From: the human T2T-CHM13v2.0 reference genome, Homo sapiens
DNA: 64,000 nucleotides
Assembly: GCF_009914755.1 (NCBI RefSeq)
Contig: NC_060926.1
Reading direction: 5' to 3' (one strand)
The translations under genes were made by a program, and so were the position numbers. How positions within the stretch are numbered: position 1 is the first letter of the stretch; the number at the start of each line of letters is the position of its first letter. The notes under the pieces are model-generated. The model searched no databases. It worked only from the letters and a program-made list of their open reading frames with translations, and was not told the DNA's origin. This document shows positions 1-64,000 of this stretch, in pieces.

Positions 1-1
1 G

Positions 2-39600: not shown

Positions 39601-42600
39601 TTTGTGATGTGCGCCCTCAACTAACAATGTTGAACCTTTCTGTTGATAGAGTAGTTTTGAAACACTCTTTTCGTAAAATCTGCAAGAGGATATTTGGATA
39701 GCTTTGAGGATTTCGTTGGAAACGGGATTGTCTTCATATTAACCCTAGACAGCAGCATTCTCAGAATGTTCTTTGGGATGTTTCAATTGAAGTCACAGTG
39801 TTGAACAGTCACTTTCATAGAGCAGGTTTGAAACACTCTTTTTGTAAAATCCGCAAGAGGATATTTGGATAGATTTGAGGATTTCGTTGGAAACGGGATT
39901 GTCTTCATATAGAATCTAGACAGAATCATTCTCAGAAGCTTCATTGGGATGTTTCAATTGAAGTCACAGTGTTGAACAGTCCCTTTCATAGAGCAGATTT
40001 GAAACACTCTTTTTGTAGTATCTGGAAGTGGACATTTGGAGCGTTCTCAGCACTACAGTGAAAAAGGAAATATCTTCCAATAAAAGCTAGATAGAAGCAA
40101 TGTCAGAAAATTTTTCATGATGTATCTACTCACCTAACAGGGTTGAACCTTTCTTTTGAGAGAGCAGTTTTGAAACACTCTTTTTGTGGAATCTGCAAGT
40201 GGATATTTGTCTAGCTTTGAGGATTGCGTTGGAAACGGGATTACATATAAAAAGCAGACAGCAGCATTCCCAGAAACTTCTTTGTGATATTTGCATTCAA
40301 GTCACAGACTTGAACATTCCCTTCCATAGAGCGGGTTTGAAACACTCTTTTTGTAGTATCTGGATGTGGACATTTGGAGCGCTTTCAGGCCTATGGTGAA
40401 AAAGGAAATATCTTCCCCTGAAAACTAGACAGAAGCATTCTCAGAAACTTATTTGTGATGTGCGCCCTCAACTAACAGTGTTGAACTTTTCTTTTGATAG
40501 AGCAGATTTGAAACACTCTTTTTGTAATATCTGCAAGAGGATATTTCGATAGCTTTGAGGATTTCTTTGGAAACGGGATTGTCTTCATATAAACTCTAGA
40601 CAGAAGCATTCTCAGAAGCTTCATTGGGATGTTTCAATTGAAGTCACAGTGTTGAACAGTCCCTTTCATAGAGCAGGTTTGAAACACTCTTTTTGTAGTA
40701 TCTGGAAGTGGACATTTGTAGAGATCTCAGGAATACGGTGATAAAGGAAATATCTTCCAATAAAAGCTAGATAGAAGCAATGTCAGAAACTTTTTCATGA
40801 TGTATCTACTCAGCTAACAAAGTTGAACCTTCATTTGAGAGAGCAGTTTTGAAACACTCGTTTTGTGGAATCTGCAAGTGGATATTTGTCTAGCTTTGAG
40901 GATTTCGTTGGAAACGGGATTACATATAAAAAGCAGACAGCAGCATTCCCAGAAACTTCTTTGTGATGTTTGCATTCAAGTCACAGAGTTGAACATTCCC
41001 TTTCATAGAGCAGGTTTGAAACACTCTTTTTGTAGTATCTGGATGTGGACATTTGGAGCGCTTTCAGGCCTATGGTGAAAAAGGAAATATCTTCCCCTGT
41101 AAACTAGACAGAAGCATTCTCAGAAACTTATTTGTGATGTGCGCCCTCAACTAAAAGTGTTGAACCTTTCTTTTGATAGAGCAGTTTTGAAACACTCTTT
41201 TGTAAAATCTGCAAGAGGATATTTGGATAGCTTTGAGGATTTCGTTGGAAACGGGATTGTCTTCATATAGAATCTAGACAGAAGCATTCTCAGAAGCTTC
41301 ATTGGGATGTTTCAATTGAAGTCACAGTGTTGAACAGTCCCTTTCATAGAGCAGGTTTGAAACACTCTTTTTGTAGTATCTGGAAGTGGACATTTGGAGC
41401 GTTCTCAGGACTAGAGTGAAAAAGGAAATATCTTCCAATAAAAGCTAGATAGAAGCAATGTCAGAAAATTTTTCATGATGTATCTACTCAGCTAACAGAG
41501 TAGAAACTTTCTTTTGAGAGAGCAGTTTTGAAACACTCTTTTTGTGGAATCTGCAAGTGGATATTTGTCTAGCTTTGAGGATTGCGTTGGAAACGGGATT
41601 ACATATAAAAAGCAGACAGCAGCATTCCCAGAAACTTCTGTGTGATATTTGCATTCAAGTCACAGACTTGAACATTCCCTTTCATAGAGCAGGTTTGAAA
41701 CACTCTTTTTGTAGTATCTGTATGTGGACATTTGGAGCGCTTTCAGGCCTATGGTGAAAAAGGAAATATCTTCCCCTGAAAACTAGACAGAAGCATTCTC
41801 AGAAACTTATTTGTGATGTGCGCCCTCAACTAACAGTGTTGAACATTTCTTTTGATAGAGCAGTTTTGAAACACTCTTTTTGTAAAATCTGCAAGAGGAT
41901 ATTTGGATAGCTTTGAGGATTTCGTTGGAAACGGGATTGTCTTCATATAAAATCTAGACAGAAGCATTCTCAGAAGCTTCATTGGGATGTTTCAATTGAA
42001 GTCACAGTGTTGAACAGTCCCTTTCATAGAGCTGGTTTGAAACACCCTTTTTGTAGTATCTGGAAGTGGACATTTGGAGCGTTCTCAGGACTACGGTGAA
42101 AAAGGAAATATCTTCCAATAAAAGCTAGATAGAAGCAATGTCAGAAAATTTTTCATGATGTATCTACTCAGCTAACAGAGTTGAACCTTTCTTTTGACAG
42201 AGCCGTTTTGAAACACTCTTTTTTTGGAATCTGCAAGTGGATATTTGTCTAGCTTTGAGGATTTCGTTGGAAACGGGATTACATATAAAAAGCAGACAGC
42301 AGCATTCCCAGAAACTTCTTTGTGATGTTTGCATTCAAGTCACAGAGTTGAACATTCCGTTTCATAGAGCAGGTTTGAAACACTCTTTTTGTAGTATCTG
42401 GATTTGGACATTTGGAGCGCTTTCAGGCCTATGGTGAAAAAGGAAATATCTTCCACTGAAAACTAGACAGAAGTATTCTCAGAAACATATTTGTGATGTG
42501 TGCCCTCAACTAACAGTGTTGAAGCTTTCTTTTGATAGAGCAGTTTTGAAACATTCTTTTTGTAAAATCTGCAAGAGGATATTTGGATAGCTTTGAGGAT

Positions 42601-43662
42601 TTCGTTGGAAACGGGATTGTCTTCATATTAACCCTAGACAGTAGCATTCTCAGAAGCTTCATTGGGATATTTCAATTGAAGCCACAGTGTTGAACAGTCC
42701 CTTTCATAGAGCAGGTTTGAAACACTCTTTTTGTAGCATCTGGAAGTGGACATTTGGAGCGTTCTCAGGACTACGGTGCAAAAGGAAATATCTTCCAATA
42801 AAAGCTAGATAGAAGCAATATCAGAAACTTTTTCATGATGTATCTACTCAGCTAAAAGAGTTGAACCTTTCTTTTGAGAGAGCAGTTTTGAAACACTATT
42901 TTTGTGGAATCTGCAAGTGGATATTTGTCTAGTTTTGAGGATCGCGTTGGAAACGGGATTACATATAAAAAGCAGACAGCAGCATTCCCAGAAATTTCTT
43001 TGTGAAATTTGCATTCAAGTCACAGACTTGAACATTCCCTTTCATAGAGCAGGTTTGAAACACTCTTTTTGTAGTATCTGGATGTGGACATTTGGAGCGC
43101 TTTCAGGCCTATGGTGAAAAAGGAAATATCTTCCCCTGAAAACTAGACAGAAGCATTCTCAGAAACTTATTTGTGATGTGCTCCCTCAACTAACGGTGTT
43201 GAACCTTTCTTTTGAAAGAGCAGTTTTGAAACACTCTTTTTGTAAAATCTGCAATAGGATATTTGGATAGCTTTGAGGATTTCGTTGGAAACGGGATTGT
43301 CTTCATATAGAATCTAGACAGAAGCATTCTCAGAAGCTTCATTGGGATGTTTCAATTGAAGTCACAGTGTTGAACAGTCCCTTTCATAGAGCAGGTTTGA
43401 AACACTCTTTTTGTAGTATCTGGAGGTGGACATTTGGAGCGTTCTCAGGACTACAGTGGAAAAGGAAATATCTTCCAGTAAAAGCTAGATAGAAGCAATG
43501 TCAGAAAATTTTTCATGATGTATCTACTCAGCTAACAGAGTTGAACCTTTCTTTTGAGAGAGCAGTTTTGAAACACTCTTTTTGTGGAATCTGCAAGTGG
43601 ATATTTGTCTAGGTTTGAGGATTGCGTTTGAAACGGGATTACATATAAAAAGCAGACAGCAG

Positions 43663-43833
43663 CATTCCCAGAAACTTCTTTGTGATGTTTGCATTCAAGT
43701 CACAGAGTTGAACATTCCCTTTCATAGAGCAGGTTTGAAACACTCTTTTTGTAGTATCTGGAAGTGGACATTTGGAGCGCTCTCAGGACTACGGTGAAAA
43801 AGGAAATATCTTCCAATAAAAGCTAGATAGAAG
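43663..43833 (+). repeat. Hybrid monomer m1/m3 (mid-monomer crossover) giving a 338-bp 2-mer; also 48081-48251 and 52156-52326
   Basis: m1 head to AACATTCCC, then m3-type CTGGAAGTGG...CTCAGGACTACGG...CCAATAAAAGCTAG, followed by m4. Confidence 0.9.
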
Positions 43834-46800
43834 CAAAGTCAGAAACTTTTTAATGATCTATCTACTCAGCTAACAGAGTTGAACCTTTCTTTTGAGAGAG
43901 CAGTTTTGAAACACTCTTTTGGTGGAATCTGCAAGTGGATATTTGTCTAGCTTTGAGGATTTCGTTGGAAACGGGATTACATATAAAAAGCAGACAGCAG
44001 CATTCCCAGAAACTTCTTTGTGATGTTTGCATTCAAGTCACAGAGTTGAACATTCCCTTTCATAGAGCAGGTTGGAAACACTCTTTTTGTAGTATCTGGA
44101 TGTGGACATTTGGAGCGCTTTCAGGCCTATGGTGAAAAAGGAAATATCTTCCCCTGAAAACTAGACAGAAGCATTCTCAGAATCTTATTTGTGATGTGCG
44201 GACTCAACTAACAGTGTTGAAGCTTTCTTTTGATAGAGCAGTTTTGAAACACTCTTTTTGTAAAATCTGCAAGAGGATATTTGGATAGCTTGGAGGATTT
44301 CGTTGGAAACGGGATTGTCTTCATATTAACCCTAGACAGTTGCATTCTCAGAAGCTTCATTGGGATGTTTCAATTGAAGTCACAGTGTTGAACAGTCCCT
44401 TTCATAGAGCAGGTTTGAAACACTCTTTTTGTAGCATCTGGAAGTGGACATTTGGAGCGTTCTCAGGACTACGGTGAAAAAGGAAATATCTTCCAATAAA
44501 AGCTAGATAGAAGCAATGTCAGAAACTTTTTCATGATGTATCTACTCAGCTAAAAGAGTTGAACCTTTCTTTTGAGAGAGCAGTTTTGAAACACTATTTT
44601 TGTGGAATCTGCAAGTGGATATTTGTCTAGCTTTGAGGATTTCGTTGGAAACGGGATTACATATAAAAAGCAGACAGCAGCATTCCCAGAAAGTTCTTTG
44701 TGAAATTTGCATTCAAGTCACAGACTTGAACATTCCCTTTCACAGAGCAGGTTTGAAACACTCTTTTTGTAGTATCTGGATGCGGACATTTGGAGCGCTT
44801 TCAGGCCTATGGTGAAAAAGGAAATATCTTCCCCTGAAAACAAGACAGAAGCATTCTCAGAATCTTATTTGTGATGTGCGCCCTCAACTAACAGTGTTGA
44901 AGCTTTCTTTTGATAGAGCAGTTTTGAAACACTCTTTTTGTAAAATCTGCAAGAGGATATTTGGATAGCTTTGAGGATTTCGTTGGAAACGGGATTGTCT
45001 TCATATAGAATCTAGACAGAAGCATTCTCAGAAGCTTCATTGGGATGTTTCAATTGAAGTCACAGTGTTGAACAGTCCCTTTCATAGAGCAGGTTTGAAA
45101 CACTCTTTTTGTAGCATCTGGAAGTGGACATTTGGAGCGTTCTCAGGACTACGGTGAAAAAGGAAATATCTTCCAATAAAAGCTAGATAGAAGCAATATC
45201 ATAAACTTTTTCATGATGTATCTACTCAGCTAAAAGAGTTGAACCTTTCTTTTGAGAGAGCAGTTTTCAAACACTCTTTTTGTGGAATCTGCAAGTGGAT
45301 ATTTGTCTGGCTTTGAAGATTTCGTTGGAAACGGGATTACATATAAAAAGCAGACAGCAGCATTCCCAGAAAGTTCTTTGTGAAATTTGCATTCAAGTCA
45401 CAGACTTGAACATTCCCTTTCATAGAGGAGGTTTGAAACACTCTTTTTGTAGTATCTGGATGTGGACATTTGAAGCGCTTTCAGGCCTATGGTGAAAAAG
45501 GAAATATCTTCCCCTGAAAACTAGAGAGAAGCATTCTCAGAATCTTATTTGTGATGTGCGCCCTCAACTAACAGTGTTGAACCTTTCTTTTGATAGAGCA
45601 GTTTTGAAACACTCTTTTTGTAAAATCTGCAAGAGGATATTTGGATAGCTTTGAGGATTTCGTTGGAAACGGGATTGTCTTCATATAGAATCTAGACAGA
45701 AGCATTCTCAGAAGCTTCATTGGGATGTTTCAATTGAAGTCACAGTGTTGAACAGTCCCTTTCATAGAGCAGGTTTGAAACACTCTTTTTGTAGTATCTG
45801 GAAGTGGACATTTGGAGCGTTCTCAGGACTACGGTGAAAAAGGAAATATCTTCCAATAAAAGCTAGATAGAAGCAATATCATAAACTTTTTCGTGATGTA
45901 TCTACTCAGCTAAAAGAGTTGAACCTTTCTTTTGAGAGAGCAGTTTTCAAACACTGTTTTTGTGGAATCTGCAAGTGGATATTTGTCTGGCTTTGAGGAT
46001 TTCGTTGGAAACGGGATTACATATAAAAAGCAGACAGCAGCTTTCCCAGAAAGTACTTTGTGAAATTTGCATTCAAGTCACAGACTTGAACATTCCCTTT
46101 CATAGAGCAGGTTTGAAACACTCTTTTTGTAGTATCTGGATGTGGACATTTGGAGCGCTTTCAGGCCTATGGTGAAAAAGGAAATATCTTCCCCTGAAAA
46201 CTAGACAGAAGCATTCTCAGAATCTTATTTGTGATGTGCGCCCTCAACTAACAGTGTTGAACCTTTCTTTTGATAGAGCAGTTTTGAAACACTCTTTTTG
46301 TAAAATCTGCAAGAGGATATTTGGATAGCTTTGAGGATTTCGTTGGAAACGGGATTGTCTTCATATAAACTCTAGACAGAAGCATTCTCAGAAGCTTCAT
46401 TGGGATGTTTCAATTGAAGTCACAGTGTTGAACAGTCCCTTTCATAGAGCAGGTTTGAAACACTCTTTTTGTAGTATCTGGAAGTGGACATTTGGAGCGC
46501 TCTCAGGACTACGGTGAAAAAGGAAATATCTTCCAATAAAAGCCAGATAGAAGCAATGTCAGAAACATTTTCATGATGTATCTACTCAGCTAACAGAGTT
46601 GAACCTTTCTTTCGAGAGAGCAGTTTTGAAACACTCTTTTTGTGGAATCTGCAAGTGGATATTTGTCTAGCTTTGAGGATTTCGTTGGAAACGGGATTAC
46701 ATATAAAAAGCAGACAGCAGCATTCCCAGAAACTTCTTTGTGATGTTTGCATTCAAGTCACAGAGTTGAACATTCCCTTTCATAGAGCAGGTTTGAAACA

Positions 46801-49800
46801 CTCTTTTTGTAGTATCTGGATGTGGACATTTGGTGCGCTTTCAGGTCTATGGTGAAAAAGGAAATATCTTCCCCTGAAAACTAGACAGAAGCATTCTCAG
46901 AATCTTATTTGTGATGTGCACCCTCAACTAACAGTGTTGAACCTTTCTTTTGATAGAGCAGTTTTGAAACACTCTTTTTGTAAAATCTGCAAGAGGATAT
47001 TTGGTTAGCTTTGAGGATTTCGTTGGAAACGGGATTGTCTTCATATAAAATCTAGACAGAAGCATTCTCAGAAGCTTCATTGGGATGTTTCAATTGATGT
47101 CACAGAGTTGAACATTCCATTTCATAGAGCAGGTTTGAAACACTCTTTTTGTAGTATCTGGAAATGGACATTTGGAGCGCTCTCAGGACTACGGTGAAAA
47201 AGGAAATATCTTCCAATAAAAGCTAGATAGAAGCAATGTCAGAAACATTTTCATGATGTATCTACTCAGCTAACAGAGTTGAACCTTTCTTTTGAGAGAG
47301 CAGTTTTGAAACACTCTTTTTGTGGAATCTGCAAGTGGATATTTGTCTAGCTTTGGGGATTTCGTTGGAAACGGGATTACATATAAAAAGCAGACAGCAG
47401 CATTCCCAGAAACTTCTTTGTGATGTTTGCATTCAAGTCACAGAGTTGAACATTCCCTTTCATAGAGCAGGTTTGAAACACTCTTTTTGTAGTATCTGAA
47501 TGTGGACATTTGGAGCGCTTTCAGGCCTATGGTGAAAAAGGAAATATCTTCCCCTGAAAACTAGACAGAAGCATTCTCAGAATCTTATTTGTGATGTGCG
47601 CCCTCAACTAACAGTGTTGAAGCTTTCTTTTGATAGAGCAGTTTTTAAACACTCTTTTTGTAAAATCTGCAAGAGGATATTTGGATAGCTTTGAGGATTT
47701 CGTTGGAAACGGGATTGTCTTCATATTAACCCTAGACAGTAGGATTCTCAGAAGCTTCATTGGGATGTTTCAATTGAAGTCACAGTGTTGAACAGTCCCT
47801 TTCATAGAGCAGGTTTGAAACACTCTTTTTGTAGTATCTGGAAGTGGACTTGTGGAGCGTTCTCAGGACTACAGTGAAAAAGGAAATATCTTCCAATAAA
47901 AGCTAGATAGAAGCAATGTCAGAAAATTTTTCATGATGTATCTACTCAGCTAACAGAGTTGAACCTTTCTTTTGAGAGAGCAGTTTTGAAACACTCTTTT
48001 GGTGGAATCTGCAAGTGGATATTTGTCTAGCTTTGAGGATATCGTTGGAAACGGGATTACATATAAAAAGCAGACAGCAGCATTCCCAGAAACTTCTTTG
48101 TGATGTTTGCATTCAAGTCACAGAGTTGAACATTCCCTTTCATAGAGCAGGTTTGAAACACTCTTTTTGTAGTATCTGGAAGTGGACATTTGGAGCGCTC
48201 TCAGGACTACGGTGAAAAAGGAAATATCTTCCAATAAAAGCTAGATAGAAGCAATGTCAGAAACATTTTCATGATGTATCTACTCAGCTAACAGAGTTGA
48301 ACCTTTCTTTTGAGAGAGCAGTTTTGAAACACTGTTTTTGTGGAATCTGCAAGTGGATATTTGTCTAGCTTTGAGGATTTCGTTGGAAACGGGATTACAT
48401 ATAAAAAGCAGACAGCAGCATTCCCAGAAACTTCTTTGTGATGTTTGCATTCAAGTCACAGAGTTGAACATTCCCTTTCATAGAGCAGGTTTGAAACACT
48501 CTTTTTGTAGTATCTGGATGTGGACATTTGGAGCGCTTTCAGGCCTATGGTGAAAAAGGAAATATCTTCCCCTGAAAACTAGACAGAAGCATTCTCAGAA
48601 ACTTATTTGTGATGTGCGCCCTCAACTAACAGTGTTGAAGCTTTCTTTTGATAGAGCAGTTTTGAAACACTCTTTTTGTAAAATCTGCAAGGGGATATTT
48701 GGATAGCTTTGAGGATTTCGTTGGAAACGGGATTGTCTTCATATAAGCTCTAGACAGAAGCATTCTCAGAAGCTTCATTGGGATGTTTCAATTGAAGTCA
48801 CAGTGTTGAACAGTCCCTTTCATAGAGCAGGTTTGAAACACTCTTTGTGTAGTATCTGGAAGTGGACATTTGGAGCGCTCTCAGGACTGTGGTGAAAAAG
48901 GAAATATCTTCCAATAAAAGCTAGATAGAAGCAATGTCAGAAACTTTTTCATGATGTATCTACTCAGCTAACAGAGTTGAACCTTCCTTTGAGAGAGCAG
49001 TTTTGAAACACTCTTTTTGTGGAATCTGCAAGTGGATATTTGTCTAGCTTTGAGGATTTCGTTGGAAACGGGATTACATATAAAAAGCAGACAGCAGCAT
49101 TCCCAGAAACTTCTTTGTGATGTTTGCATTCAAGTCACAGAGTTGAACATTCCCTTTCATAGAGCAGGTTTGAAACACTCTTTTTGTAGTATCTGGATGT
49201 GGACATTTGGAGCGCTTTCGGGCCTATGGTGAAAAAGGAAATATCTTCCCCTGAAAACTAGACAGAAGCATTCTCAGAAACTTATTTGTGATGTGCGCCC
49301 TCAACTAACAGTGTTAAACCTTTCTTTTGATAGAGTAGTTTTGAAACACTGTTTGTGTAAAATCTGCAAGAGGATATTTGGATAGCTTTGAGGATTTCGT
49401 TGGAAACGGGATTGTCTTCATATAAACTCTAGACAGAAGCATTCTCAGAAGCTTCATTGGGATGTTTCAATTGAAGTCACAGTGTTGAACAGTCCCTTTC
49501 ATAGAGCAGGTTTGAAACACTCTTTTTGTAGTATCTGGAAGTGGACATTTTGAGCGCTCTCAGGACTACGGTGAAAAAGGTAATATCTTCCAATAAAAGC
49601 TAGATAGAAGCAATGTCAGAAACTTTTTCATGATGTATCTACTCAGCTAACAGAGTTGAACCTTTCTTTTGAGAGAGCAGTTTTGAAACACTCTTTTTGT
49701 GGAATCTGCAAGTGGATATTTGTCTAGCTTTGAGGATTTCGTTGAAAACGGGATTACATATAAAAAGCAGACAGCAGCATTCCCAGAAACTTCTTTGTGA

Positions 49801-52800
49801 TGTTTGCATTCAAGTCACAGAGTTGAACATTCCCTTTCATAGAGCAGGTTTGAAACACTCTTTTTGTAGTATCTGGATGTGGACATTTGGAGCGCTTTCA
49901 GGTCTATGGTGAAAAAGGAAATATCTTCCCCTGAAAACTAGACAGAAGCATTCTCAGAATCTTATTTGTGATGTGCACCCTCAACTAACAGTGTTGAACC
50001 TTTCTTTTGATAGAGCAGTTTTGAAACACTCTTTTTGTAAAATCTGCAAGAGGATATTTGGTTAGCTTTGAGGATTTCGTTGGAAACGGGATTGTCTTCA
50101 TATAAAATCTAGACAGAAGCATTCTCAGAAGCTACATTGGGATGTTTCAATTGATGTCACAGAGTTGAACATTCCATTTCATAGAGCAGGTTTGAAACAC
50201 TCTTTTTGTAGTATCTGGAAATGGACATTTGGAGCGCTCTCAGGACTACGGTGAAAAAGGAAATATCTTCCAATAAAAGCTAGATAGAAGCAATGTCAGA
50301 AACATTTTCATGATGTATCTACTCAGCTAACAGAGTTGAACCTTTCTTTTGAGAGAGCAGTTTTGAAACACTCTTTTTGTGGAATCTGCAAGTGGATATT
50401 TGTCTAGCTTTGGGGATTTCGTTGGAAACGGGATTACATATAAATAGCAGACAGCAGCATTCCCAGAAACTTCTTTGTGATGTTTGCATTCAAGTCACAG
50501 AGTTGAACATTCCCTTTCATAGAGCAGGTTTGAAACACTCTTTTTGTAGTATCTGAATGTGGACATTTGGAGCGCTTTCAGGCCTATGGTGAAAAAGGAA
50601 ATATCTTCCCCTGAAAACTAGACAGAAGCATTCTCAGAATCTTATTTGTGATGTGCGCCCTCAACTAACAGTGTTGAACCTTTCTTTTGATACAGCAGTT
50701 TTGAAACACTCTTTTTGTAAAATCTGCAAGAGGATATTTGGATAGCTTTGAGGATTTCGTTGGAAACGGGATTACATATAAAAAGCAGACAGCAGCATTC
50801 CCAGAAAGTTCTTTGTGAAATTTGCATTCAAGTCACAGACTTGAACATTCCCTTTCATAGAGCAGGTTTGAAACACTCTTTTTGTATTATCTGGATGCGG
50901 ACATTTGGAGCGCTTTCAGGCCTATGGTGAAAAAGGAAATATCTTCCCCTGAAAACTAGACAGAAGCATTCTCAGAATCTTATTTGTGATGTGCGCCCTG
51001 AACTAACAGTGTTGAAGCTTTCTTTTGATAGAGCAGTTTTGAAACACTCTTTTTGTAAAATCTGCAAGAGGATATTTGGATAGCTTTGAGGATTTCGTTG
51101 GAAACGGGATTGTCTTCATACAGAATCTAGACAAAAGCATTCTCAGAAGCTTCATTGGGATGTTTCAATTGAAGTCACAGTGTTGAACAGTCCCTTTCAT
51201 AGAGCAGGTTTGAAACACTCTTTTTGTAGTATCTGGACGTGGACATTTGGAGCGCTCTCAGGACTACGGTGAAAAAGGAAATATCTTCCAATAAAAGCTA
51301 GATAGAAGCAATGTCAGAAACTTTTTCATGATGTATCTACTCAGCTAACAGAGTTGAACCTTTGTTTTGAGAGAGCCGTTTTGAAACACTCTTTTTGTGG
51401 AATCTGCAAGTGGATATTTGTCTAGCTTTGAAGATTTCGTTGGAAACGGGATTACGTATAAAAAGCAGACAGCAACATTCACAGAAACTTCTTTGTGATG
51501 TTTGCATTCAAGTCACAGAGTTGAACATTCCCTTTCATAGAGCAGGATTGAAACACTCTTTTTGTAGTATCTGGATGTGGACATTTGGAGCGCTTTCAGG
51601 CCTATGGTGAAAAAGAAAATATCTTCCCCTGAAAACTAGACAGAAGCATTCTCAGAATCTTATTTGTGATGCGCGCCCTCAACTAACAGTGTTGAAGCTT
51701 TCTTTTGATAGAGCAGTTTTGAAACACTCTTTTTGTAAAATCTGCAAGAGGATATTTGGATAGCTTTGAGGATTTCGTTGGAAACGGGATTGTCTTCATT
51801 TTAACCCTAGACAGTCGCATTCTCAGAAGCTTCATTGGGATGTTTCAATTGAAGTCACAGTGTTGAACAGTCCCTTTCATAGAGCAGGTTTGAAACACTC
51901 TTTTTGTAGTATCTGGAAGTGGACTTGTGGAGCGTTCTCAGGACTACAGTGAAAAAGGAAATATCTTCCAATAAAAGCTAGATAGAAGCAATGTCAGAAA
52001 ATTTTTCATGATGTATCTACTCAGCTAACAGAGTTGAACCTTTCTTTTGAGAGAGCAGTTTTGAAACACTCTTTTGGTGGAATCTGCAAGTGGATATTTG
52101 TCTAGCTTTGAGGATATCGTTGGAAACGGGATTACATATAAAAAGCAGACAGCAGCATTCCCAGAAACTTCTTTGTGATGTTTGCATTCAAGTCACAGAG
52201 TTGAACATTCCCTTTCATAGAGCAGGTTTGAAACACTCTTTTTGTAGTATCTGGAAGTGGACATTTGGAGCGCTCTCAGGACTACGGTGAAAAAGGAAAT
52301 ATCTTCCAATAAAAGCTAGATAGAAGCAATGTCAGAAACATTTTCATGATGTATCTACTCAGCTAACAGAGTTGAACCTTTCTTTTGAGAGAGCAGTTTT
52401 GAAACACTGTTTTTGTGGAATCTGCAAGTGGATATTTGTCTAGCTTTGAGGATTTCGTTGGAAACGGGATTACATATAAAAAGCAGACAGCAGCATTCCC
52501 AGAAACTTCTTTGTGATGTTTGCATTCAAGTCACAGAGTTGAACATTCCCTTTCATAGAGCAGGTTGGAAACACTCTTTTTGTAGTATCTGGATGTGGAC
52601 ATTTGGAGCGCTTTCAGGCCTATGGTGAAAAAGGAAATATCTTCCCCTGAAAACTAGACAGAAGCATTCTCAGAATCTTATTTGTGATGTGCGCCCTCAA
52701 CTAACAGTGTTGAAGCTTTCTTTTGATAGAGCAGTTTTGAAACACTCTTTTTGTAAAATCTGCAAGAGGATATTTGGATAGCTTTGAGGATTTCGTTGGA

Positions 52801-55800
52801 AACGGGATTGTCTTCATATAAACTCTAGACAGAAGCATTCTCAGAAGCTTCATTGGGATGTTTCAATTGAAGTCACAGTGTTGAACAGTCCCTTTCATAG
52901 AGCAGGTTTGAAACACTCTTTTTGTAGTATCTGGAAGTGGACATTTGGAGTTCTCTCAGGACTGCGGTGAAAAAGGAAATATCTTCCAATAAAAGCTAGA
53001 TAGAAGCAATGTCAGAAACTTTTTCATGATGTATCTACTCAGCTAACAGAGTAGAACCTTCCTTTGAGAGAGCAGTTTTGAAACACTCTTTTTGTGGAAT
53101 CTGCAAGTGGATATTTGTCTAGCTTTGAGGATTTCGTTGGAAACGGGATTACATATAAAAAGCAGACAGCAGCATTCCCAGAAACTTCTTTGTGATGTTT
53201 GCATTCAAGTCACAGAGTTGAACATTCCCTTTCATAGAGCAGGTTTGAAACACTCTTTTTGTAGTATCTGGATGTGGACATTTGGAGCGCTTTCAGGCCT
53301 ATGGTGAAAAAGGAAATATCTTCCCCTGAAAACTAGACAGAAGCATTCTCAGAAACTTATTTGTGATGTGCGCCCTCAACTAACAGTGTTGAAGCTTTCT
53401 TTTGATAGAGCAGTTTTGAAACACTCTTTTTGTAAAATCTGCAAGAGGATATTTGGATAGCTTTGAGGATTTCGTTGGAAACGGGATTGTCTTCATATAA
53501 ACTCTAGACAGAAGCATTCTCAGAAGCTTCATTGGGATGTTTCAATTGAAGTCACAGTGTTGAACAGTCCCTTTCATAGAGCAGGTTTGAAACACTCTTT
53601 GTGTAGTATATGGAAGTGGACATTTGGAGCGCTCTCAGGACTGTGGTGAAAAAGGAAATATCTTCCAATAAAAGCTAGATAGAAGCAATGTCAGAAACTT
53701 TTTCATGATGTATCTACTCAGCTAACAGAGTTGAACCTTCCTTTGAGAGAGCAGTTTTGAAACACTCTTTTTGTGGAATCTGCAAGTGGATATTTGTCTA
53801 GCTTTGAGGATTTCGTTGGAATCGGGATTACATATAAAAAGCAGACAGCAGCATTCCCAGAAACTTCTTTGTGATGTTTGCATTCAAGTCACAGAGTTGA
53901 ACATTCCCTTTCATAGAGCAGGTTTGAAACACTCTTTTTGTAGTATCTGGATGTGGACATTTGGAGCGCTTTCGGGCCTATGGTGAAAAAGGAAATATCT
54001 TCCCCTGAAAACTAGACAGAAGCATTCTCAGAAACTTATTTGTGATGTGCGCCCTCAACTAACAGTGTTAAACCTTTCTTTTGATAGAGTAGTTTTGAAA
54101 CACTGTTTGTGTAAAATCTGCAAGAGGATATTTGGATAGCTTTGAGGATTTCGTTGGAAACGGGATTGTCTTCATATAAAATCTAGACAGAAGCATTCTC
54201 AGAAGCTTCATTGGGATGTTTCAATTGAAGTCACAGTGTTGAACAGTCCCTTTCATATAGCAGGTTTGAAACACTCTTTTTGTAGTATCTGGAAGTGGAC
54301 ATTTTGAGCGCTCTCAGGACTACGGTGAAAAAGGAAATATCTTCCAATAAAAGCTAGATAGAAGCAATGTCAGAAACTTTTTCATGATGTATCTACTCAG
54401 CTAACAGAGTTGAACCTTTCTTTTGAGAGAGCAGTTTTGAAACACTCTTTTTGTGGAATCTGCAAGTGGATATTTGTCTAGCTTTGAGGATTTCGTTGAA
54501 AACGGGATTACATATAAAAAGCAGACAGCAGCATTCCCAGAAACTTCTTTGTGATGTTTGCATTCAAGTCACAGAGTTGAACATTCCCTTTCATAGAGCA
54601 GGTTTGAAACACTCTTTTTGTAGTATCTGGATGTGGACATTTGGAGCTCTTTCAGGCCTATGGTGAAAAAGGAAATATCTTCCCCTGAAAACTAGACAGA
54701 AGCATTCTCAGAATCTTATTTGTGATGTGCGCCCTCAACTAACAGTGTTGAAGCTTTTTTTTGATAGAGCAGTTTTGAAACACTCTTTTTGTAAAATTTG
54801 TAAGAGGATATTAGGATAGCTTTGAGGATTTCGTTGGAAACGGGATTGTCTTCATATAAACTCTAGACAGAAGCATTCTCAGAAGCTTCATTGGGATGTT
54901 TCAATTGAAGTCACAGTGTTGAACAGTCCCTTTCATAGAGCAGGTTTGAAACACTCTTTTTGTAGTATCTGGAAGTGGACATTTGGAGCGCTCTCAGGAC
55001 TACGGTGAAAAAGAAAATATCTTCCAATAAAAGCTAGATAGAAGCAATGTCAGAAACATTTTCATGATGTATCTACTCAGCTAACAGAGTTGAACCTTTC
55101 TTTTGAGAGAGCAGTTTTGAAACACTCTTTTGGTGGAATCTGCAAGTGGATATTTGTCTAGCTTTGAGGATTTCGTTGGAAACGGGATTACATATAAAAA
55201 GCAGACAGCAGCATTCCCAGAAACTTCTTTGTGATGTTTGCATTCAAGTCACAGAGTTGAACATTCCCTTTCATAGAGCAGGTTGGAAACACTCTTTTTG
55301 TAGTATCTGGATGTGGACATTTGGAGCGCTTTCAGGCCTATGGTGAAAAAGGAAATATCTTCCCCTGAAAACTAGACAGAAGCATTCTCAGAATCTTATT
55401 TGTGATGTGCGCCCTCAACTAACAGTGTTGAAGCTTTCTTTTGATAGAGCAGTTTTGAAACACTCTTTTTGTAAAATCTGCAAGAGGATATTTGGATAGC
55501 TTTGAGGATTTCGTTGGAAACGGGATTGTCTTCATATAAACTCTAGACAGAAGCATTCTCAGAAGCTTCATTGGGATGTTTCAATTGAAGTCACAGTGTT
55601 GAACAGTCCCTTTCATAGAGCAGGTTTGAAACACTCTTTTTGTAGTATCTGGAAGTGGACATTTGGAGCGCTCTCAGGACTACGGTGAAAAAGGAAATAT
55701 CTTCCAATAAAAGCCAGATAGAAGCAATGTCAGAAACATTTTCATGATGTATCTACTCAGCTAACAGAGTTGAACCTTTCTTTCGAGAGAGCAGTTTTGA

Positions 55801-57673
55801 AACACTCTTTTTGTGGAATCTGCAAGTGGATATTTGTCTAGCTTTGAGGATTTCGTTGGAAACGCGATTACATATAAAAAGCAGACAGCAGCATTCCCAG
55901 AAACTTCTTTGTGATGTTTGCATTCAAGTCGCAGAGTTGAACATTCCCTTTCATAGAGCAGGTTTGAAACACTCTTTTTGTAGTATCTGGATGTGGACAT
56001 TTGGAGCGCTTTCAGGTCTATGGTGAAAAAGGAAATATCTTCCCCTGAAAACTAGACAGAAGCATTCTCAGAATCTTATTTGTGATGTGCACCCTCAACT
56101 AACAGTGTTGAACCTTTCTTTTGATAGAGCAGTTTTGAAACACTCTTTTTGTAAAATCTGCAATAGGATATTTGGTTAGCTTTGAGGATTTCGTTGGAAA
56201 CGGGATTGTCTTCATATAAAATCTAGACAGAAGCATTCTCAGAAGCTTCATTGGGATGTTTCAATTGATGTCACAGAGTTGAACATTCCATTTCATAGAG
56301 CAGGTTTGAAACACTCTTTTTGTAGTATCTGGAAATGGACGTTTGGAGCGCTCTCAGGACTACGGTGAAAAAGGAAATATCTTCCAATAAAAGCTAGATA
56401 GAAGCAATGTCAGAAACATTTTCATGATGTATCTACTCAGCTAACAGAGTTGAACCTTTCTTTTGAGAGAGCAGTTTTGAAACACTCTTTTTGTGGAATC
56501 TGCAAGTGGGTATTTGTCTAGCTTTGAGGATTTCGTTGGAAACGGGATTACATATAAAAAGCAGACAGCAGCATTCCCAGAAACTTCTTTGTGATGTTTG
56601 CATTCAAGTCACAGAGTTGAACATTCCCTTTCATAGAGCAGGTTTGAAACACTCTTTTTGTAGTATCTGGATGTGGACATTTGGAGCGCTTTCAGGCCTA
56701 TGGTGAAAAAGGAAATATCTTCCCCTGAAAACTAGACAGAAGCATTCTCAGAATCTTATTTGTGATGTGCGCCCTCAACTAACAGTGTTGAACCTTTCTT
56801 TTGATATAGCAGTTTTGAAACACTCTTTTTGTAAAATCTGCAAGAGGATATTTGGATAGCTTTGAGGATTTCGTTGGAAACGGGATTGTCTTCATATAAA
56901 CTCTAGACAGAAGCATTCTCAGAAGCTTCATTGGGATGTTTCAATTGAAGTCACAGTGTTGAACAGTCCCTTTCATACAGCAGGTTTGAAACACTCTTTT
57001 TGTAGTATCTGGAAGTGGACATTTGGAGCGCTCTCAGGACTACGGTGAAAAAGGAAATATCTTCAAATAAAAGCTAGATAGAAGCAATGTCAGAAACTTT
57101 TTCAGGATGTATCTACTCAGCTAACAGTGTTGAACCTTTCTTTTGAGAGAGCAGTTTTGAAACACTCTTTTTGTGGAATCTGGAAGTGGATATTTGTCTA
57201 GCTTTGAGGATTTCGTTGGAAACGGGATTACATATAAAAAGCAGACAGCAGCATTCACAGAAATTTCTTTGTGATGTTTGCATTCAAGTCACAGAGTTGA
57301 ACATTCCCTTTCTTAGAGCAGGTTTGAAACACTCTTTTTGTAGTATCTGGATGTGGACATTTGGAGCGCTTTCAGGCCTATGGTGAAAAAGGAAATATCT
57401 TCCCCTGAAAACTAGACAGAAGCATTCTCAGAATCTTATTTGTGATGTGCGCCCTCAACTAACAGTGTTGAAGCTTTCTTTTGATAGAGCAGTTTTGAAA
57501 CACTCTTTTTGTAAAATCTGCAAGAGGATATTTGGATAGCTTTGAGGATTTCGTTGGAAACGGGATTGTCTTCATATAAACTCTAGACAGAATCATTCTC
57601 AGAAGCTTCATTGGGATGTTTCAATTGAAGTCACAGTGTTGAACAGTCCCTTTCATAGAGCAGGTTTGAAACA

Positions 57674-57712
<39 letters not shown>

Positions 57713-57719
<7 letters not shown>

Positions 57720-57797
57720 AAATATGCGCACCACATACAGCTATATCCCAATTTATTTGTGTTCCAGGATATGTGAAGAAAGACATTCACTACAGCA
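57713..57797 (-). other. 85-bp non-satellite 3'-transduced sequence between two poly(A) tracts (copy 1)
   Basis: Lies between T36 (57677-57712) and T13 (57798-57810). The minus strand reads TGCTGTAGTGAATGTCTTTCTTCACATATCCTGGAACACAAATAAATTGGGATATAGCTGTATGTGGTGCGCATATTTTTAATTT, with AATAAA at 57752-57757. Confidence 0.88.
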
Positions 57798-57938
57798 TTT
57801 TTTTTTTTTTATTATACTCTAAGTTTTAGGGTACATGTGCACATTGTGCAGGTTAGTAACATATGTATACATGTGCCATGCTGGTGCGCTGCACCCACTA
57901 ATGTGTCATCTAGCATTAGGTATATCTCCCAATGCTAT

Positions 57939-57972
57939 CCCTCCCCCCTCCCCCGACCCCACCACAGTCCCC
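57939..57972 (-). other. L1 3'UTR G-rich tract / G-quadruplex motif (copy 2 at 63481-63514)
   Basis: Minus strand GGGGACTGTGGTGGGGTCGGGGGAGGGGGGAGGG, with at least four G3+ runs; this is the known L1HS 3'UTR polypurine tract. Confidence 0.8.
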
Positions 57973-58015
57973 AGAGTGTGATATTCCCCTTCCTGTGTCC
58001 ATGTGATCTCATTGT

Positions 58016-58459
58016 TCAATTCCCACCTATGCGTGAGAATATGCGGTGTTTGGTTTTTTGTTCTTGCGATAGTTTACTGAGAATGATGGTTTCCAATTTC
58101 ATCCATGTCCCTACAAAGGATATGAACTCATCATTTTTTATGGCTGCATAATATTCCATGGTGTATATGTGCCACATTTTCTTAATCCAGTCTATCATTG
58201 TTGGACATTTGGGTTGGTTCCAAGTCTTTGCTATTGTGAATAGTGCCGCAATAAACATACGTGTGCATGTGTCTTTATAGCAGCATGATTTATAGACCTT
58301 TGGGTATATACCCAGTAATGGGATGGCTGGGTCAAATGGTATTTCCAGTTCTAGATCCCTGAGGAATCGCCACACTGACTTCCACAATGGTTGAACTAGT
58401 TTAAAGTCCCACCAACAGTGTAAAAGTGTTCCTATTTCTCCGCATCCTCTCCAGCACCT
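58016..58459 (-). pseudogene. L1 ORF2p C-terminal fragment (no start, no EN/RT domains)
   Basis: Translates RCWRGCGEIGTLLHCWWDFKLVQPLWKSVWRFLRDLELEIPFDPAIPLLGIYP...KHRIFSRIGGN*; TGA stop at 58016-58018. Confidence 0.93.
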
Positions 58460-58464
58460 TTTTT
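58460..58464 (+). repeat. Probable short target-site duplication TTTTT (left copy 57677-57681, merged with the tail)
   Basis: The empty site is ACACTCTTTTTGTAG; the filled site is ACACTC-T36...L1...CACCT-TTTTT-GTAG. Exact TSD length is ambiguous inside T runs. Confidence 0.65.
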
Positions 58465-61400
58465 GTAGTATCTGGAAGTGGACATTTGGAGAGTTCTCAG
58501 GAATACGGTGAAAAAGGAAATATCTTCCAATAAAAGCTAGATAGAAGCAATGTCAGAAACTTTTTAATGATGTATCTACTCAGCTAACAGAGTTGAACCT
58601 TTCTTTTGAGAGAGCAGTTTTGAAACACTCTTTTTGTGGAATCTGCAAGTGGATATTTGTCTAGCTTTGAGGATTTCGTTGGAAACGGGATTACATATAA
58701 AAAGCAGACAGCAGCATTCCCAGAAATTTCTTTGTGATGTTTGCATTCAACTCACAGAGTTGAACATTCCCTTTCTTAGAGCAGGTTTGAAACACTCTTT
58801 TTGTAGTATCTGGATGTGGACATTTGGAGCGCTTTCAGGCCTATGGTGAAAAAGGAAATATCTTCCCCTGAAAACTAGACAGAAGCATTCTCAGAATCTT
58901 ATTTGTGATGTGCGCCCTCAACTAACAGTGTTGAAGCTTTCTTTTGATAGAGCAGTTTTGAAACACTCTTTTTGTAAAATCTGCAAGAGGATATTTGGAT
59001 AGGTTTGAGGATTTCGTTGAAAACGGGATTGTCTTCATATAAACTCTAGACAGAAGCATTCTCAGAAGCTTCATTGGGATGTTTCAATTGAAGTCACAGT
59101 GTTGAACAGTCCCTTTCATAGAGCAGGTTTGAAACGCTCTTTTTGTAGTATCTGGAAGTGGACATTTGGAGAGTTCTCAGGAATACGGTGAAAAAGGAAA
59201 TATCTTCCAATAAAAGCTAGACAGAAGCAATGTCAGAAAATTGTTCATGATGTATCTACTCAGCTAACAGTGTTGAACCTTCCTTTTGAGAGAGCAGTTT
59301 TGAAACACTATTTTTGTGGAATCTGCAAGTGGATATTTGTCTAGATTTGAGGATTTCGTTGGAAACGGGATTACATATAAAAAGCAGACAGCAGCATTCC
59401 CAGAAACTTCTTTGTGATGTTTGCATTCAAGTCACAGAGTTGAACATTCCCTTTCATAGAGCAGGTTTGAAACACTCTTTTTGTAGTATCTGGATGTGGA
59501 CATTTGGAGCGCTTTCAGGCCTATGGTGAAAAAGGAAATATCTTCCCCTGAAAACTAGACAGAAGCATTCTCAGAAACTTATTTGTGATGTGCGCCCTCA
59601 ACTAACAGTGTTGAAGCTTTCTTTTGATAGAGCAGTTTTGAAACACTCTTTTTGTAAAATCTGCAAGAGGATATTTGGATAGCTTTGAGGATTTCGTTGG
59701 AAACGGGATTGTCTTCATATAAACTCTAGACAGAAGCATTCTCAGAAGCTTCATTGGGATGTTTCAATTGAAGTCACAGTGTTGAACAGTCCCTTTCATA
59801 GAGCAGGTTTGAAAAACTCATTTTGTAGTATCTGGAAGTGGACATTTGGAGCGCTCTCAGGACTACGGTGAAAAAGGAAATATCTTCCAATAAAAGCTAG
59901 ATAGAAGCAATGTCAGAAACATTTTCATGATGTATCTACTCAGCTAACAGAGTTGAACCTTTCTTTTGAGAGAGCAGTTTTGAAACACTCTTTTTGTGGA
60001 ATCTGCAAGTGGAAATTTGTCTAGATTTGAGGATTTCGTTGGAAACGGGATTACATATAAAAAGCAGACAGCAGCATTCCCAGAAACTTCTTTGTGATGT
60101 TTGTATTCAAGTCACAGAGTTGAACATTCCCTTTCATAGAGCAGGTTTGAAACACTCTTTTTGTAGTATCTGGATGTGGACATTTGGAGCGCTTTCAGGC
60201 CTATGGTGAAAAAGGAAATATCTTCCCCTGAAAACTAGACAGAAGCATTCTCAGAATCTTATTTGTGATGTGCGCCCTCAACTAACAGTGTTGAAGCTTT
60301 CTTTTGATAGAGCAGTTTTGAAACACCCTTTTTGTAAAATCTGCAAGAGGATATTTGGATAGCTTTGAGGATTTCGTTGGAAACGGGATTGTCTTCATAT
60401 AAACTCTAGACAGAAGCATTCTCAGAAGCTTCATTGGGATGTTTCAACAGAAGTCACAGTGTTGAACAGTCCCTTTCATAGAGCAGGTTTGAAACACTCT
60501 TTTTGTAGTATGTGGAAGTGGACCTTTGGAGAGTTCTCAGGAATACCGTGAAAAAGGAAATATCTTCCAATAAAAGCTAGATAGAAGCAATGTCAGAAAC
60601 TTTTTCATGATGTATCTACTCAGCTAACAGAGTTGAACCTTTCTTTTGAGAGAGCAGTTTTGAAACACTCTTTTTGTGGAATCTGCAAGTGGATATTTGA
60701 CTAGCTTTGAGGATTTCGTTGGAAACGGGATTATATATAAAAAGCAGACAGCAGCATTCCCAGAAACTTCTTTGTGATGTTTGCATTTAAGTGACAGAGT
60801 TGAACATTCCCTTTCATAGAGCAGGTTTGAAACACTCTTTTTGTAGTATCTGGATGTGGAAATTTGGAGCGCTTTCAGGCCTATGGTGAAAAAGGAAATA
60901 TCTTCCCCTGAAAACTAGACAGAAGTAGTCTCAGAAACTTATTTGTGATGTGCGCCCTCAACTAACAGTGTTGAAGCTTTCTTTTCACAGAGCCGTTTTG
61001 AAACACGCTTTTTGTAAAATCTGCAAGAGGATATTTGGATAGCTTTGAGGATTTCGTTGGAAACGGGATTGTCTGCATATAAACTCTAGACAGAAGCATT
61101 CTCAGAAGCTTCATTGGGATGTTTCAATTGAAGTCACAGTGTTGAACAGTCCCTTTCATAGAGCAGGTTTGAAACACTCTTTTTGTAGTATCTGGAAGTG
61201 CACATTTGGAGCGATCTCAGGACTACGGCGAAAAAGGAAATATCTTCCAATAAAAGCTAGATAGAAGCAATGTCAGAAACATTTTCGTGATGTATCTACT
61301 CAGCTAACAGAGTTGAACCTTTCTTTTGAGAGAGCAGTTTTGAAACACTCTTTTGGTGGAATCTGCAAGTGGATATTTGTCTAGCTTTGAGGATTTCGTT

Positions 61401-63216
61401 GGAAACGGGATTACATATAAAAAGCAGACAGCAGCATTCCCAGAAACTTCTTTGTGATGTTTGCATTCAAGTCACAGAGTTGAACATTCCCTTTCATAGA
61501 GCAGGTTGGAAACACTCTTTTTGTAGTATCTGGATGTGGACATTTGGAGCGCTTTCAGGCCTATGGTGAAAAAGGAAATATCTTCCCCTGAAAACTAGAC
61601 AGAAGCATTCTCAGAATCTTATTTGTGATGTGCGCCCTCAACTAACAGTGTTGAAGCTTTGTTTTGATAGAGCAGTTTTGAAACACTCTTTTTGTAAAAT
61701 CTGCAAGAGGATATTTGGATAGCTTTGAGGATTTCGTTGGAAACGGGATTGTCTTCATATAAACTCTAGACAGAAGCATTCTCAGAAGCTTCATTGGGAT
61801 GTTTCAATTGAAGTCACAGTGTTGAACAGTCCCTTTCATAGAGCAGGTTTGAAACACTCTTTTTGTAGTATCTGGAAGTGGACATTTGGAGCGCTCTCAG
61901 GACTACGGTGAAAAAGGAAATATCTTCCAATAAAAGCCAGATAGAAGCAATGTCAGAAACATTTTCATGATGTATCTACTCAGCTAACAGAGTTGAACCT
62001 TTCTTTCGAGAGAGCAGTTTTGAAACACTCTTTTTGTGGAATCTGCAAGTGGATATTTGTCTAGCTTTGAGGATTTCGTTGGAAACGCGATTACATATAA
62101 AAAGCAGACAGCAGCATTCCCAGAAACTTCTTTGTGATGTTTGCATTCAAGTCACAGAGTTGAACATTCCCTTTCATAGAGCAGGTTTGAAACACTCTTT
62201 TTGTAGTATCTGGATGTGGACATTTGGAGCGCTTTCAGGTCTATGGTGAAAAAGGAAATATCTTCCCCTGAAAACTAGACAGAAGCATTCTCAGAATCTT
62301 ATTTGTGATGTGCACCCTCAACTAACAGTGTTGAACCTTTCTTTTGATAGAGCAGTTTTGAAACACTCTTTTTGTAAAATCTGCAATAGGATATTTGGTT
62401 AGCTTTGAGGATTTCGTTGGAAACGGGATTGTCTTCATATAAACTCTAGACAGAAGCATTCTCAGAAGCTTCATTGGGATGTTTCAATTGATGTCACAGA
62501 GTTGAACATTCCATTTCATAGAGCAGGTTTGAAACACTCTTTTTGTAGTATCTGGAAATGGACGTTTGGAGCGCTCTCAGGACTACGGTGAAAAAGGAAA
62601 TATCTTCAAATAAAAGCTAGATAGAAGCAATGTCAGAAACTTTTTCAGGATGTATCTACTCAGCTAACAGTGTTGAACCTTTCTTTTGAGAGAGCAGTTT
62701 TGAAACACTCTTTTTGTGGAATCTGGAAGTGGATATTTGTCTAGCTTTGAGGATTTCGTTGGAAACGGGATTACATATAAAAAGCAGACAGCAGCATTCA
62801 CAGAAATTTCTTTGTGATGTTTGCATTCAAGTCACAGAGTTGAACATTCCCTTTCTTAGAGCAGGTTTGAAACACTCTTTTTGTAGTATCTGGATGTGGA
62901 CATTTGGAGCGCTTTCAGGCCTATGGTGAAAAAGGAAATATCTTCCCCTGAAAACTAGACAGAAGCATTCTCAGAATCTTATTTGTGATGTGCGCCCTCA
63001 ACTAACAGTGTTGAAGCTTTCTTTTGATAGAGCAGTTTTGAAACACTCTTTTTGTAAAATCTGCAAGAGGATATTTGGATAGCTTTGAGGATTTCGTTGG
63101 AAACGGGATTGTCTTCATATAAACTCTAGACAGAATCATTCTCAGAAGCTTCATTGGGATGTTTCAATTGAAGTCACAGTGTTGAACAGTCCCTTTCATA
63201 GAGCAGGTTTGAAACA

Positions 63217-63224
<8 letters not shown>
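58460..63224 (+). repeat. Alpha-satellite 4-mer HOR array, continued in register between the two L1 copies (7 HOR periods)
   Basis: Resumes at TTTTTGTAGTATCTGGAAG in the same monomer 3 that was interrupted. Anchors 58634, 59314, 59994, 60674, 61354, 62034, 62714 are spaced 680 bp apart. Confidence 0.97.
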
Positions 63225-63256
<32 letters not shown>

Positions 63257-63263
<7 letters not shown>

Positions 63264-63341
63264 AAATATGCGCACCACATACAGCTATATCCCAATTTAT
63301 TTGTGTTCCCGGATATGTGAAGAAAGACATTCACTACAGCA
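63257..63341 (-). other. 85-bp 3'-transduced sequence (copy 2)
   Basis: Identical to 57713-57797 except A57766 -> C63310 (GTTCCAGG vs GTTCCCGG); AATAAA on the minus strand at 63296-63301. Confidence 0.88.
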
Positions 63342-63557
63342 TTTTTTTTTTTATTATACTCTAAGTTTTAGGGTACATGTGCACATTGTGCAGGTTAGTA
63401 ACATATGTATACATGTGCCATGCTGGTGCGCTGCACCCACTAATGTGTCATCTAGCATTAGGTATATCTCCCAATGCTATCCCTCCCCCCTCCCCCGACC
63501 CCACCACAGTCCCCAGAGTGTGATATTCCCCTTCCTGTGTCCATGTGATCTCATTGT

Positions 63558-64000
63558 TCAATTCCCACCTATGCGTGAGAATATGCGGTGTTTGGTTTTT
63601 TGTTCTTGCGATAGTTTACTGAGAATGATGGTTTCCAATTTCATCCATGTCCCTACAAAGGATATGAACTCATCATTTTTTATGGCTGCATAATATTCCA
63701 TGGTGTATATGTGCCACATTTTCTTAATCCAGTCTATCATTGTTGGACATTTGGGTTGGTTCCAAGTCTTTGCTATTGTGAATAGTGCCGCAATAAACAT
63801 ACGTGTGCATGTGTCTTTATAGCAGCATGATTTATAGACCTTTGGGTATATACCCAGTAATGGGATGGCTGGGTCAAATGGTATTTCCAGTTCTAGATCC
63901 CTGAGGAATCGCCACACTGACTTCCACAATGGTTGAACTAGTTTAAAGTCCCACCAACAGTGTAAAAGTGTTCCTATTTCTCCGCATCCTCTCCAGCACC
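63558..64000 (-). pseudogene. L1 ORF2p C-terminal fragment, copy 2
   Basis: ORF track 63558..63929 is identical to 58016..58387; the frame is open to the window end. Confidence 0.92.

What the first reader, a model, noticed from the sequence alone, without database searches (positions are those of the whole stretch)
57713..57810. 85-bp 3' transduction: foreign DNA imported into a centromere and a barcode for the source L1
Seen: the minus strand reads L1 3' end - A13 - 85 bp non-satellite - poly(A), with AATAAA ending 39 nt before the tail. Established: read-through of the weak L1 polyadenylation signal mobilises 3' flanking DNA. Inference: the 85 bp is the flank of the donor L1, and its first bases ((A)nTGCTGTAGTG) should include the donor's 3' TSD. 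The signal-to-tail distance is longer than the usual ~10-30 nt, so priming at an A-rich flank is an alternative.
Basis: partly seen in the sequence, partly recalled or inferred. Interest (0 to 1): 0.75.

Follow-up and report, generated by a model that had tools for sequence, protein, structure and literature searches.

The report
Centromere L1 traced to cancer-active parent
A short jumping-gene (L1) fragment that sits in six copies in the human chromosome 2 centromere carries 85 bases matching the DNA right behind a full-length L1 on chromosome 1 that still jumps in tumours, so that element is very likely its parent, and the piece likely landed once and was then multiplied by duplications of the centromeric repeat.

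Summary
Confirmed and extended. Window 57713-57797 (minus strand) is an 85-bp 3' transduction between an A13 linker and a poly(A) tail, attached to a 5'-truncated (about 650 bp) L1HS. A search of T2T-CHM13 gave 7 matches: six in the chr2 alpha-satellite array (a second lies in this window, 63257-63341) and one at chr1:86.52 Mb, directly 3' of a full-length L1HS whose target-site duplication forms the start of the tag. That element is the known hot source '1p22.3': tumour insertions in PCAWG carry the same tag, 20 of 22 ending at 64-65 nt, against 87 nt here. All six copies share both junctions, so there was one insertion, later amplified in whole 680-bp HOR steps. The insertion is already catalogued (Logsdon 2025, at least 22 rows in 10 haplotypes) as a plain L1HS; I found no paper that names its tag or parent, but one relevant supplement was not visible. 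The insert shows a 2-4-fold excess of substitutions over its parent (P 0.01-0.1): suggestive only. Ordinary mechanism, useful new link.

The parts
57677..57712 (-). Poly(A) tail of the insertion (A36); its outer 5 bases double as the 3' copy of a short target-site duplication
   Evidence: T36 run; empty sites read T5 in 229 of 283 sites matched
57713..57797 (-). 85-bp 3' transduction from chr1:86,519,027-86,519,113 (87 nt in the donor)
57752..57757 (-). AATAAA of the donor's flank; 16 nt upstream of the usual end of tumour transductions, 39 nt upstream of this tail
57787..57797 (-). Remnant of the donor's 3' target-site duplication (one substitution, two bases lost beside the A-run)
   Evidence: an 18-bp copy precedes the donor's 5' end
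57798..57810 (-). A13 linker: the donor L1's own genomic poly(A) (A16 in the CHM13 donor allele)
57811..58459 (-). 3' 648-649 bp of an L1HS (Ta, Ta-0 type by recalled diagnostics), 5'-truncated, no inversion
   Evidence: annotated L1HS 5491-6154 in Logsdon 2025 Supp. Table 58
58460..58464 (-). 5' copy of the target-site duplication (at most 5 A); likely nick site 5'-TTTTT/G-3' on the + strand
   Evidence: junction against empty sites
58460..63219 (.). Seven 680-bp alpha-satellite HORs between copy 1 and copy 2
   Evidence: spacer of 4761 bp = 7.01 HORs
63220..64000 (-). Second copy of the whole insertion: A37 tail (63220-63256), tag (63257-63341, one T>G change), A11 linker (63342-63352), L1 (63353-64000)
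1..57676 (.). Chromosome 2 alpha-satellite HOR array (171-bp monomers, 680-bp unit; D2Z1 by position)
   Evidence: array name

Best explanation
The 85 bp match the DNA directly 3' of the full-length L1HS at 1p22.3 (chr1:86.52 Mb) and were very likely carried into the chr2 centromere in one germline retrotransposition of a read-through transcript, after which the insertion was likely multiplied to six copies by in-register duplications of the satellite array. Shown: tag identity, adjacency to the donor, the donor's TSD at the start of the tag, identical junctions in all six copies, spacers of 7, 8, 8 and 17 whole HORs, and the same tag in tumour insertions from this donor. Inferred from the established TPRT model: the transcript skipped the L1 poly(A) signal, was cut and polyadenylated about 40 nt after the flank AATAAA (a minor distal site; tumours mostly use the site 16 nt after it), was reverse-transcribed from a nick at TTTTT/G in a HOR, and ended after about 650 nt of L1 with a TSD of at most 5 bp. 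The fragment has no promoter or intact ORF, cannot move by itself, and is a passenger marker of array turnover.
For: 7 of 7 matches explained, the only non-centromeric one abutting a full-length L1. Donor TSD on both sides of the donor, so chr1 is the origin. Same 5' junction and tail junction in 6 of 6 copies; 0 differences among them in 648 bp of L1 and 1 in the tag. The insertion HOR and the next 4-5 HORs differ by 0-3 bases (4-8 for one hybrid unit, the fourth HOR after the copy in question), against a median of 24 between HORs of this region. Donor and insert share the minority allele 308T (4 of 23 other close L1s; 1 of the 18 position-picked Ta loci covering it). PCAWG source '1p22.3' rows print the same tag sequence.
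Against: The insert differs from the CHM13 donor allele at 7 of 648 L1 positions; 5 of the 23 other L1s examined are as close or closer by one or two bases (5-6 differences), so the L1 part alone would not name the donor. The 3' end at 87 nt is seen in 0 of 22 visible tumour rows. The TSD (5 bp or less) is short. The CHM13 donor allele has a broken ORF2, so the parent must have been another or earlier allele, or was complemented in trans.
Confidence: 0.88

Rival explanations
1. Two-step origin: 1p22.3 first made a full-length daughter with the tag; that daughter, absent from CHM13, gathered mutations and then produced the centromeric fragment.
For: Five substitutions and the two-base loss are shared by all centromeric copies seen, also in other haplotypes, and tumour insertions from the donor show the donor state where readable. 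The 3' end is atypical.
Against: No such locus in CHM13. No second TSD remnant or composite tail in the insert. Faster mutation in HOR arrays is reported and could account for the load.
Confidence: 0.08
2. Same donor, but reverse transcription was primed internally on the A-rich patch just 3' of the tag, and the tail grew by slippage instead of by polyadenylation.
For: 39 nt from AATAAA to the tail; the donor's next bases are A-rich (11 A in 17).
Against: No pure A-run of five at the junction; the tail is pure A, 22-37 long, and none of the interrupting bases is copied. One tumour transduction is listed as 118 nt, so distal ends occur.
Confidence: 0.1
3. DNA-level capture (ectopic repair, gene conversion) of chr1 sequence, several independent insertions, or assembly false duplication.
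For: Centromeric arrays are hard to assemble; the copies are nearly identical.
Against: Non-templated tail, 5' truncation and T-rich target point to retrotransposition. Identical junctions exclude independent insertions. Copies differ in tail, linker and flanking HORs, and independent assemblies hold 1-6 copies per haplotype.
Confidence: 0.02

Closest known systems
L1-mediated partnered 3' transduction (Hoyt et al. bioRxiv 10.1101/2021.07.12.451456, section 7 part 1 and passages; Rodriguez-Martin 2020 PMC7058536, Supp. Table 2 rows)
   Same: L1 3' end, donor poly(A), unique flank with its own AATAAA, new poly(A), traceable donor.
   Different: Germline insertion in an active alpha-satellite array, amplified afterwards; very short TSD; distal 3' end.
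Hot source L1 '1p22.3' (hg19 1:87,144,764-87,150,795 in PMC7058536; Zumalave bioRxiv 10.1101/2024.08.27.596794, passages and section 6)
   Same: Same flank sequence printed in three tumour rows; their 64-nt end falls 16 nt after the AATAAA in my donor sequence.
   Different: Tumour tags end at 64-65 nt in 20 of 22 rows, here at 87. The CHM13 allele has a broken ORF2. No centromeric germline offspring is named in the passages I saw.
L1HS insertion and its duplications in D2Z1 (Logsdon 2025, PMC12350169, passages and Supp. Table 58 rows)
   Same: It is the same insertion: identical 5' junction and tag in 22 visible rows from 10 haplotypes; the paper already reads the copies as duplications.
   Different: The table lists it as L1HS with an 11-13 base 'possible tail' (the linker); the word transduction has 0 hits in the stored part of that file.

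Membership tests
L1 partnered 3' transduction | Non-L1 segment between L1 3' end and a poly(A) tail | tested here: met
L1 partnered 3' transduction | Segment maps directly 3' of a full-length L1 in the same orientation elsewhere | tested here: met
L1 partnered 3' transduction | Tag starts with the donor's 3' TSD | tested here: met
   (one substitution, two bases lost)
L1 partnered 3' transduction | TPRT hallmarks at the new site: TSD and T-rich endonuclease site | tested here: met
   TSD of at most 5 bp inside the T-run, site TTTTT/G; weak, because the TSD is all A
L1 partnered 3' transduction | Polyadenylation signal 10-30 nt before the new tail | tested here: inconclusive
   AATAAA present but 39 nt away; the usual site of this donor is 16 nt away
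L1HS Ta (Ta-0) | ACA trinucleotide and G near the 3' end; G/C at the two Ta-0/Ta-1 sites | tested here: met
   present in insert and donor; the diagnostic positions and their labels are recalled, two paper searches gave no passage that I read defining them
Retrotransposition-competent source L1 | Two intact ORFs | tested here: not met
   CHM13 allele: ORF1 338 aa intact, ORF2 in pieces of 764, 282 and 200 aa; other alleles are active in tumours but could not be read in full
Array-amplified mobile element insertion | Identical junctions and flanks, spacing in whole HOR units | tested here: met

The most novel reading that the evidence does not exclude
The insert is a built-in mutation reporter with a known template: non-satellite DNA inside an active centromeric array has mutated 2-4 times faster than its parent locus, with a transversion bias, which conversion between HOR copies cannot explain; and one L1 locus has stayed active from before the split of today's chr2 centromere haplotypes (roughly 0.4 to over 1.5 million years) to present-day tumours, seeding satellite arrays on chr2 and chr22.
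Probability: 0.3. Interest if true: 0.65.

Novelty: new member of a known kind. Interest (0 to 1): 0.45.

Why it matters
It names the parent of a common centromeric L1 insertion and links it to an element that is still hot in cancers. Because the ancestral sequence is known from the donor, the roughly 730-bp insert can root trees of chr2 centromere haplotypes, order array duplications, and test whether high centromeric mutation rates are true point mutation or HOR-to-HOR conversion. Practical: multi-copy, near-identical tags in cen2 can draw reads away from real 1p22.3 transductions when T2T-CHM13 is the reference (inference).

Tried and rejected
Independent insertions: rejected (identical junctions). 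Tag originating in the centromere: rejected (donor TSD on both sides). Further long-tag siblings in CHM13: none. A pattern for very short tags gave 15 hits: donor, six centromeric copies, one chr22 element with a 6-nt tag, and 7 others; I fetched 2 of those 7 and neither is a sibling. Strong hypermutation claim: not upheld. Against 20 Ta loci picked by position on chr1, all included, 3.3 private changes are expected in 648 bp (P 0.24); dropping two outliers with 13 and 16 changes gives 1.9 (P 0.047 for 5, 0.13 for 4). The first comparison set was chosen by likeness to the insert and is biased. A search for recalled genome coordinates of the donor in main texts found one irrelevant paper. Searches for a prior description of this transduction listed none by title or abstract start; passages of Altemose, Gao ('transduc' 0 hits), HPRC2 and xTea did not mention it.

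Full report
Observation. On the minus strand the window reads L1 3' UTR, A13 (57798-57810), 85 non-satellite bases (57713-57797) and A36 (57677-57712); AATAAA (57752-57757) ends 39 nt before the tail. The L1 part runs to 58458-58459, where 171/680-bp alpha satellite resumes. A second, almost identical copy occupies 63220-64000: one substitution in the tag, linker A11, tail A37.

Donor. The 85-mer has 7 matches in CHM13, all 7 candidates scored: six on chr2 (94,008,933; 94,021,275; 94,027,484; 94,297,714; 94,303,258; 94,309,465) and one at chr1:86,519,028-86,519,112. The chr1 match directly follows the poly(A) of a 6,014-bp L1 in the same orientation. An 18-bp sequence precedes that L1's 5' end and recurs after its poly(A): it is the donor's TSD, and the tag starts with it. 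This fixes the direction chr1 to chr2. The CHM13 allele has an intact ORF1 and an ORF2 broken by a 4-bp deletion and a stop. The Ta and Ta-0 labels rest on recalled diagnostics.

The donor is a known hot L1. In the stored part of the PCAWG table (PMC7058536, supplement 3, cut when stored; I saw 22 of 22 rows for this source) source '1p22.3' (hg19 1:87,144,764-87,150,795) has three rows whose contigs print this tag, one of them up to its poly(A). 20 of the 22 rows end at 64-65 nt, one at 118 nt, one has an odd coordinate, none at 87. In my donor sequence position 64 lies 16 nt after the AATAAA. Zumalave et al. (bioRxiv 10.1101/2024.08.27.596794, passages and section 6) call a 1p22.3 source hot, with 65 derived copies and transductions ending 64 bp downstream; PRCGAP (10.64898/2026.05.28.728591, passages) reports 55 solo insertions from an L1 at 1p22.3 in one cell line. 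These two give no coordinates in what I saw; identity with this donor rests on the 64-bp end for the first and on the band name alone for the second.

Target site. Empty sites read T5 in 229 of 283 sites matched (the pattern pools related monomers); the filled site has T6 at the L1 5' junction, and the sixth base fits L1, so the TSD is at most 5 bp and the nick would be TTTTT/G. The tail is pure A and not templated by the donor, whose next bases are A-rich but interrupted; I therefore prefer a minor distal polyadenylation site to internal priming (inference).

One insertion, six copies. All six share both junctions, are identical over 648 bp of L1 and differ at one tag position (3 of 6) and in A-run lengths. 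They form two clusters of three, 270 kb apart, with spacers of 17, 8, 7 and 8 HORs. The insertion-bearing HOR and the next four or five units differ by 0-3 bases between copies, apart from one hybrid unit after the window's first copy, against a median of 24 between 64 HORs of the region. This is repeated in-register duplication; whether by unequal sister exchange or break-induced replication cannot be told from one genome.

What is known. Logsdon 2025 (PMC12350169; passages) reports L1HS or Alu insertions in 80% of D2Z1 haplotypes, mostly duplications of one element. Its Supp. Table 58 (cut when stored, cells cut at 400 characters) holds this insertion in at least 22 rows from 10 haplotypes of 8 samples, 1-6 copies each, annotated as L1HS with the linker taken as tail; 'transduction' has 0 hits in the stored file. 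The changes at L1 positions 55 and 163 are in 12 of 12 plus-oriented rows; those at 427, 601, the tag substitution and the two-base loss in 10 of 10 minus-oriented rows; the change at 113, shared by all six CHM13 copies, in 0 of 12. So most changes predate the split of these haplotypes, and CHM13's six copies descend from, or were homogenised to, one later copy. Hoyt et al. (bioRxiv; passages and section 7 part 1) catalogued CHM13 transductions, 6% of top-confidence ones in centromeric regions; their Table S13 was not visible and may list this event, though a TSD-based caller may miss a 5-bp all-A TSD (inference). Four searches and passages of Altemose, Gao, HPRC2, xTea and Ebert showed no mention of the link.

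Mutation load. Against the donor the insert has 7 differences in 648 bp of L1: five are absent from 23 close L1s, one is private to the CHM13 donor allele, one is a polymorphic CpG site. With the tag substitution that is 6 derived changes in 733 bp. The donor lineage gained 12 to 24 changes in 6,014 bp over at most the same time (hand-polarised), a ratio of 4.1 to 2.0 (conditional P 0.01 to 0.10). Against 20 position-picked Ta loci the excess is not significant with all included (P 0.24) and borderline without two outliers (P 0.047). Transversions: 4 of 6, or 8 of 12 with later variants read by eye from the supplement rows, against 10 of 32 in controls (P 0.12 and 0.04). At the HOR rates of Gao et al. 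(passages) five shared changes equal 17,000-26,000 generations; at the centromere rate of 1.0e-7 in Porubsky 2025 (passages) about 68,000 (hand arithmetic). Ebert et al. give a mean Ta-0 age of 1.63 Myr (passage). The age is thus loosely 0.4 to over 1.5 Myr. This is a lead, not a result.

Other likely daughters. A full-length L1 in a 68-bp satellite array at chr22:1.24 Mb ends in A11, six bases equal to the start of the donor TSD, then A23; it differs from the donor at 18 of about 6,000 positions. A 2,952-bp L1 on chr14 shares most donor-lineage variants. Both assignments are inferred.

Verdict. The observation and interpretation hold. The mechanism is textbook, the insertion and the donor are each in print, and the link between them appears unreported within what I could see. 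New member of a known kind; interest 0.45.

Noticed in passing
window 63220-64000: Second full copy of the L1 plus tag insertion, 7 HORs downstream; a third lies 6.2 kb further, beyond the window, and three more 270 kb upstream.
   Followed up: yes
L044 (G000:C22:1240000-1249900), L1 at about 1,243,595-1,249,611: Full-length L1HS inside a 68-bp satellite array on chr22p with a 6-nt micro-tag equal to the start of the 1p22.3 donor's TSD: likely a second satellite-embedded daughter, cut just past the L1's own signal.
   Followed up: partly
L047 (G000:C14:33590000-33598500), locus 4517-7468: 2,952-bp 5'-truncated L1 with 5 mismatches to the donor and most of its lineage variants: likely solo daughter. 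L045 (chr13, 844 bp, 2 mismatches) may be another.
   Followed up: partly
L008 (chr1:86,519,130-86,525,143): The CHM13 allele of this hot source L1 has a broken ORF2, and tumour-derived copies show an extra AAT before the poly(A) and lack a CHM13-private base: clear allelic heterogeneity.
   Followed up: partly
PMC12350169 Supp. Table 58, rows 88-90: Three rows with this insertion's exact junctions are labelled chr10, not chr2: probably a labelling slip, or else an interchromosomal transfer worth checking.
   Followed up: no
window 1-57676: Several 1,017-1,018-bp (6-monomer) and one 851-bp HOR variants interrupt the 680-bp register; a block of seven HORs here is nearly identical (0-1 differences each) to the block upstream of the first copy at chr2:94.00 Mb.
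   Followed up: partly
L066, L070 (chr1:106.46 and 147.35 Mb): Two L1 3' ends carry the Ta ACA motif yet have 13 and 16 private changes in about 650 bp: older elements with a converted or convergent motif.
   Followed up: no
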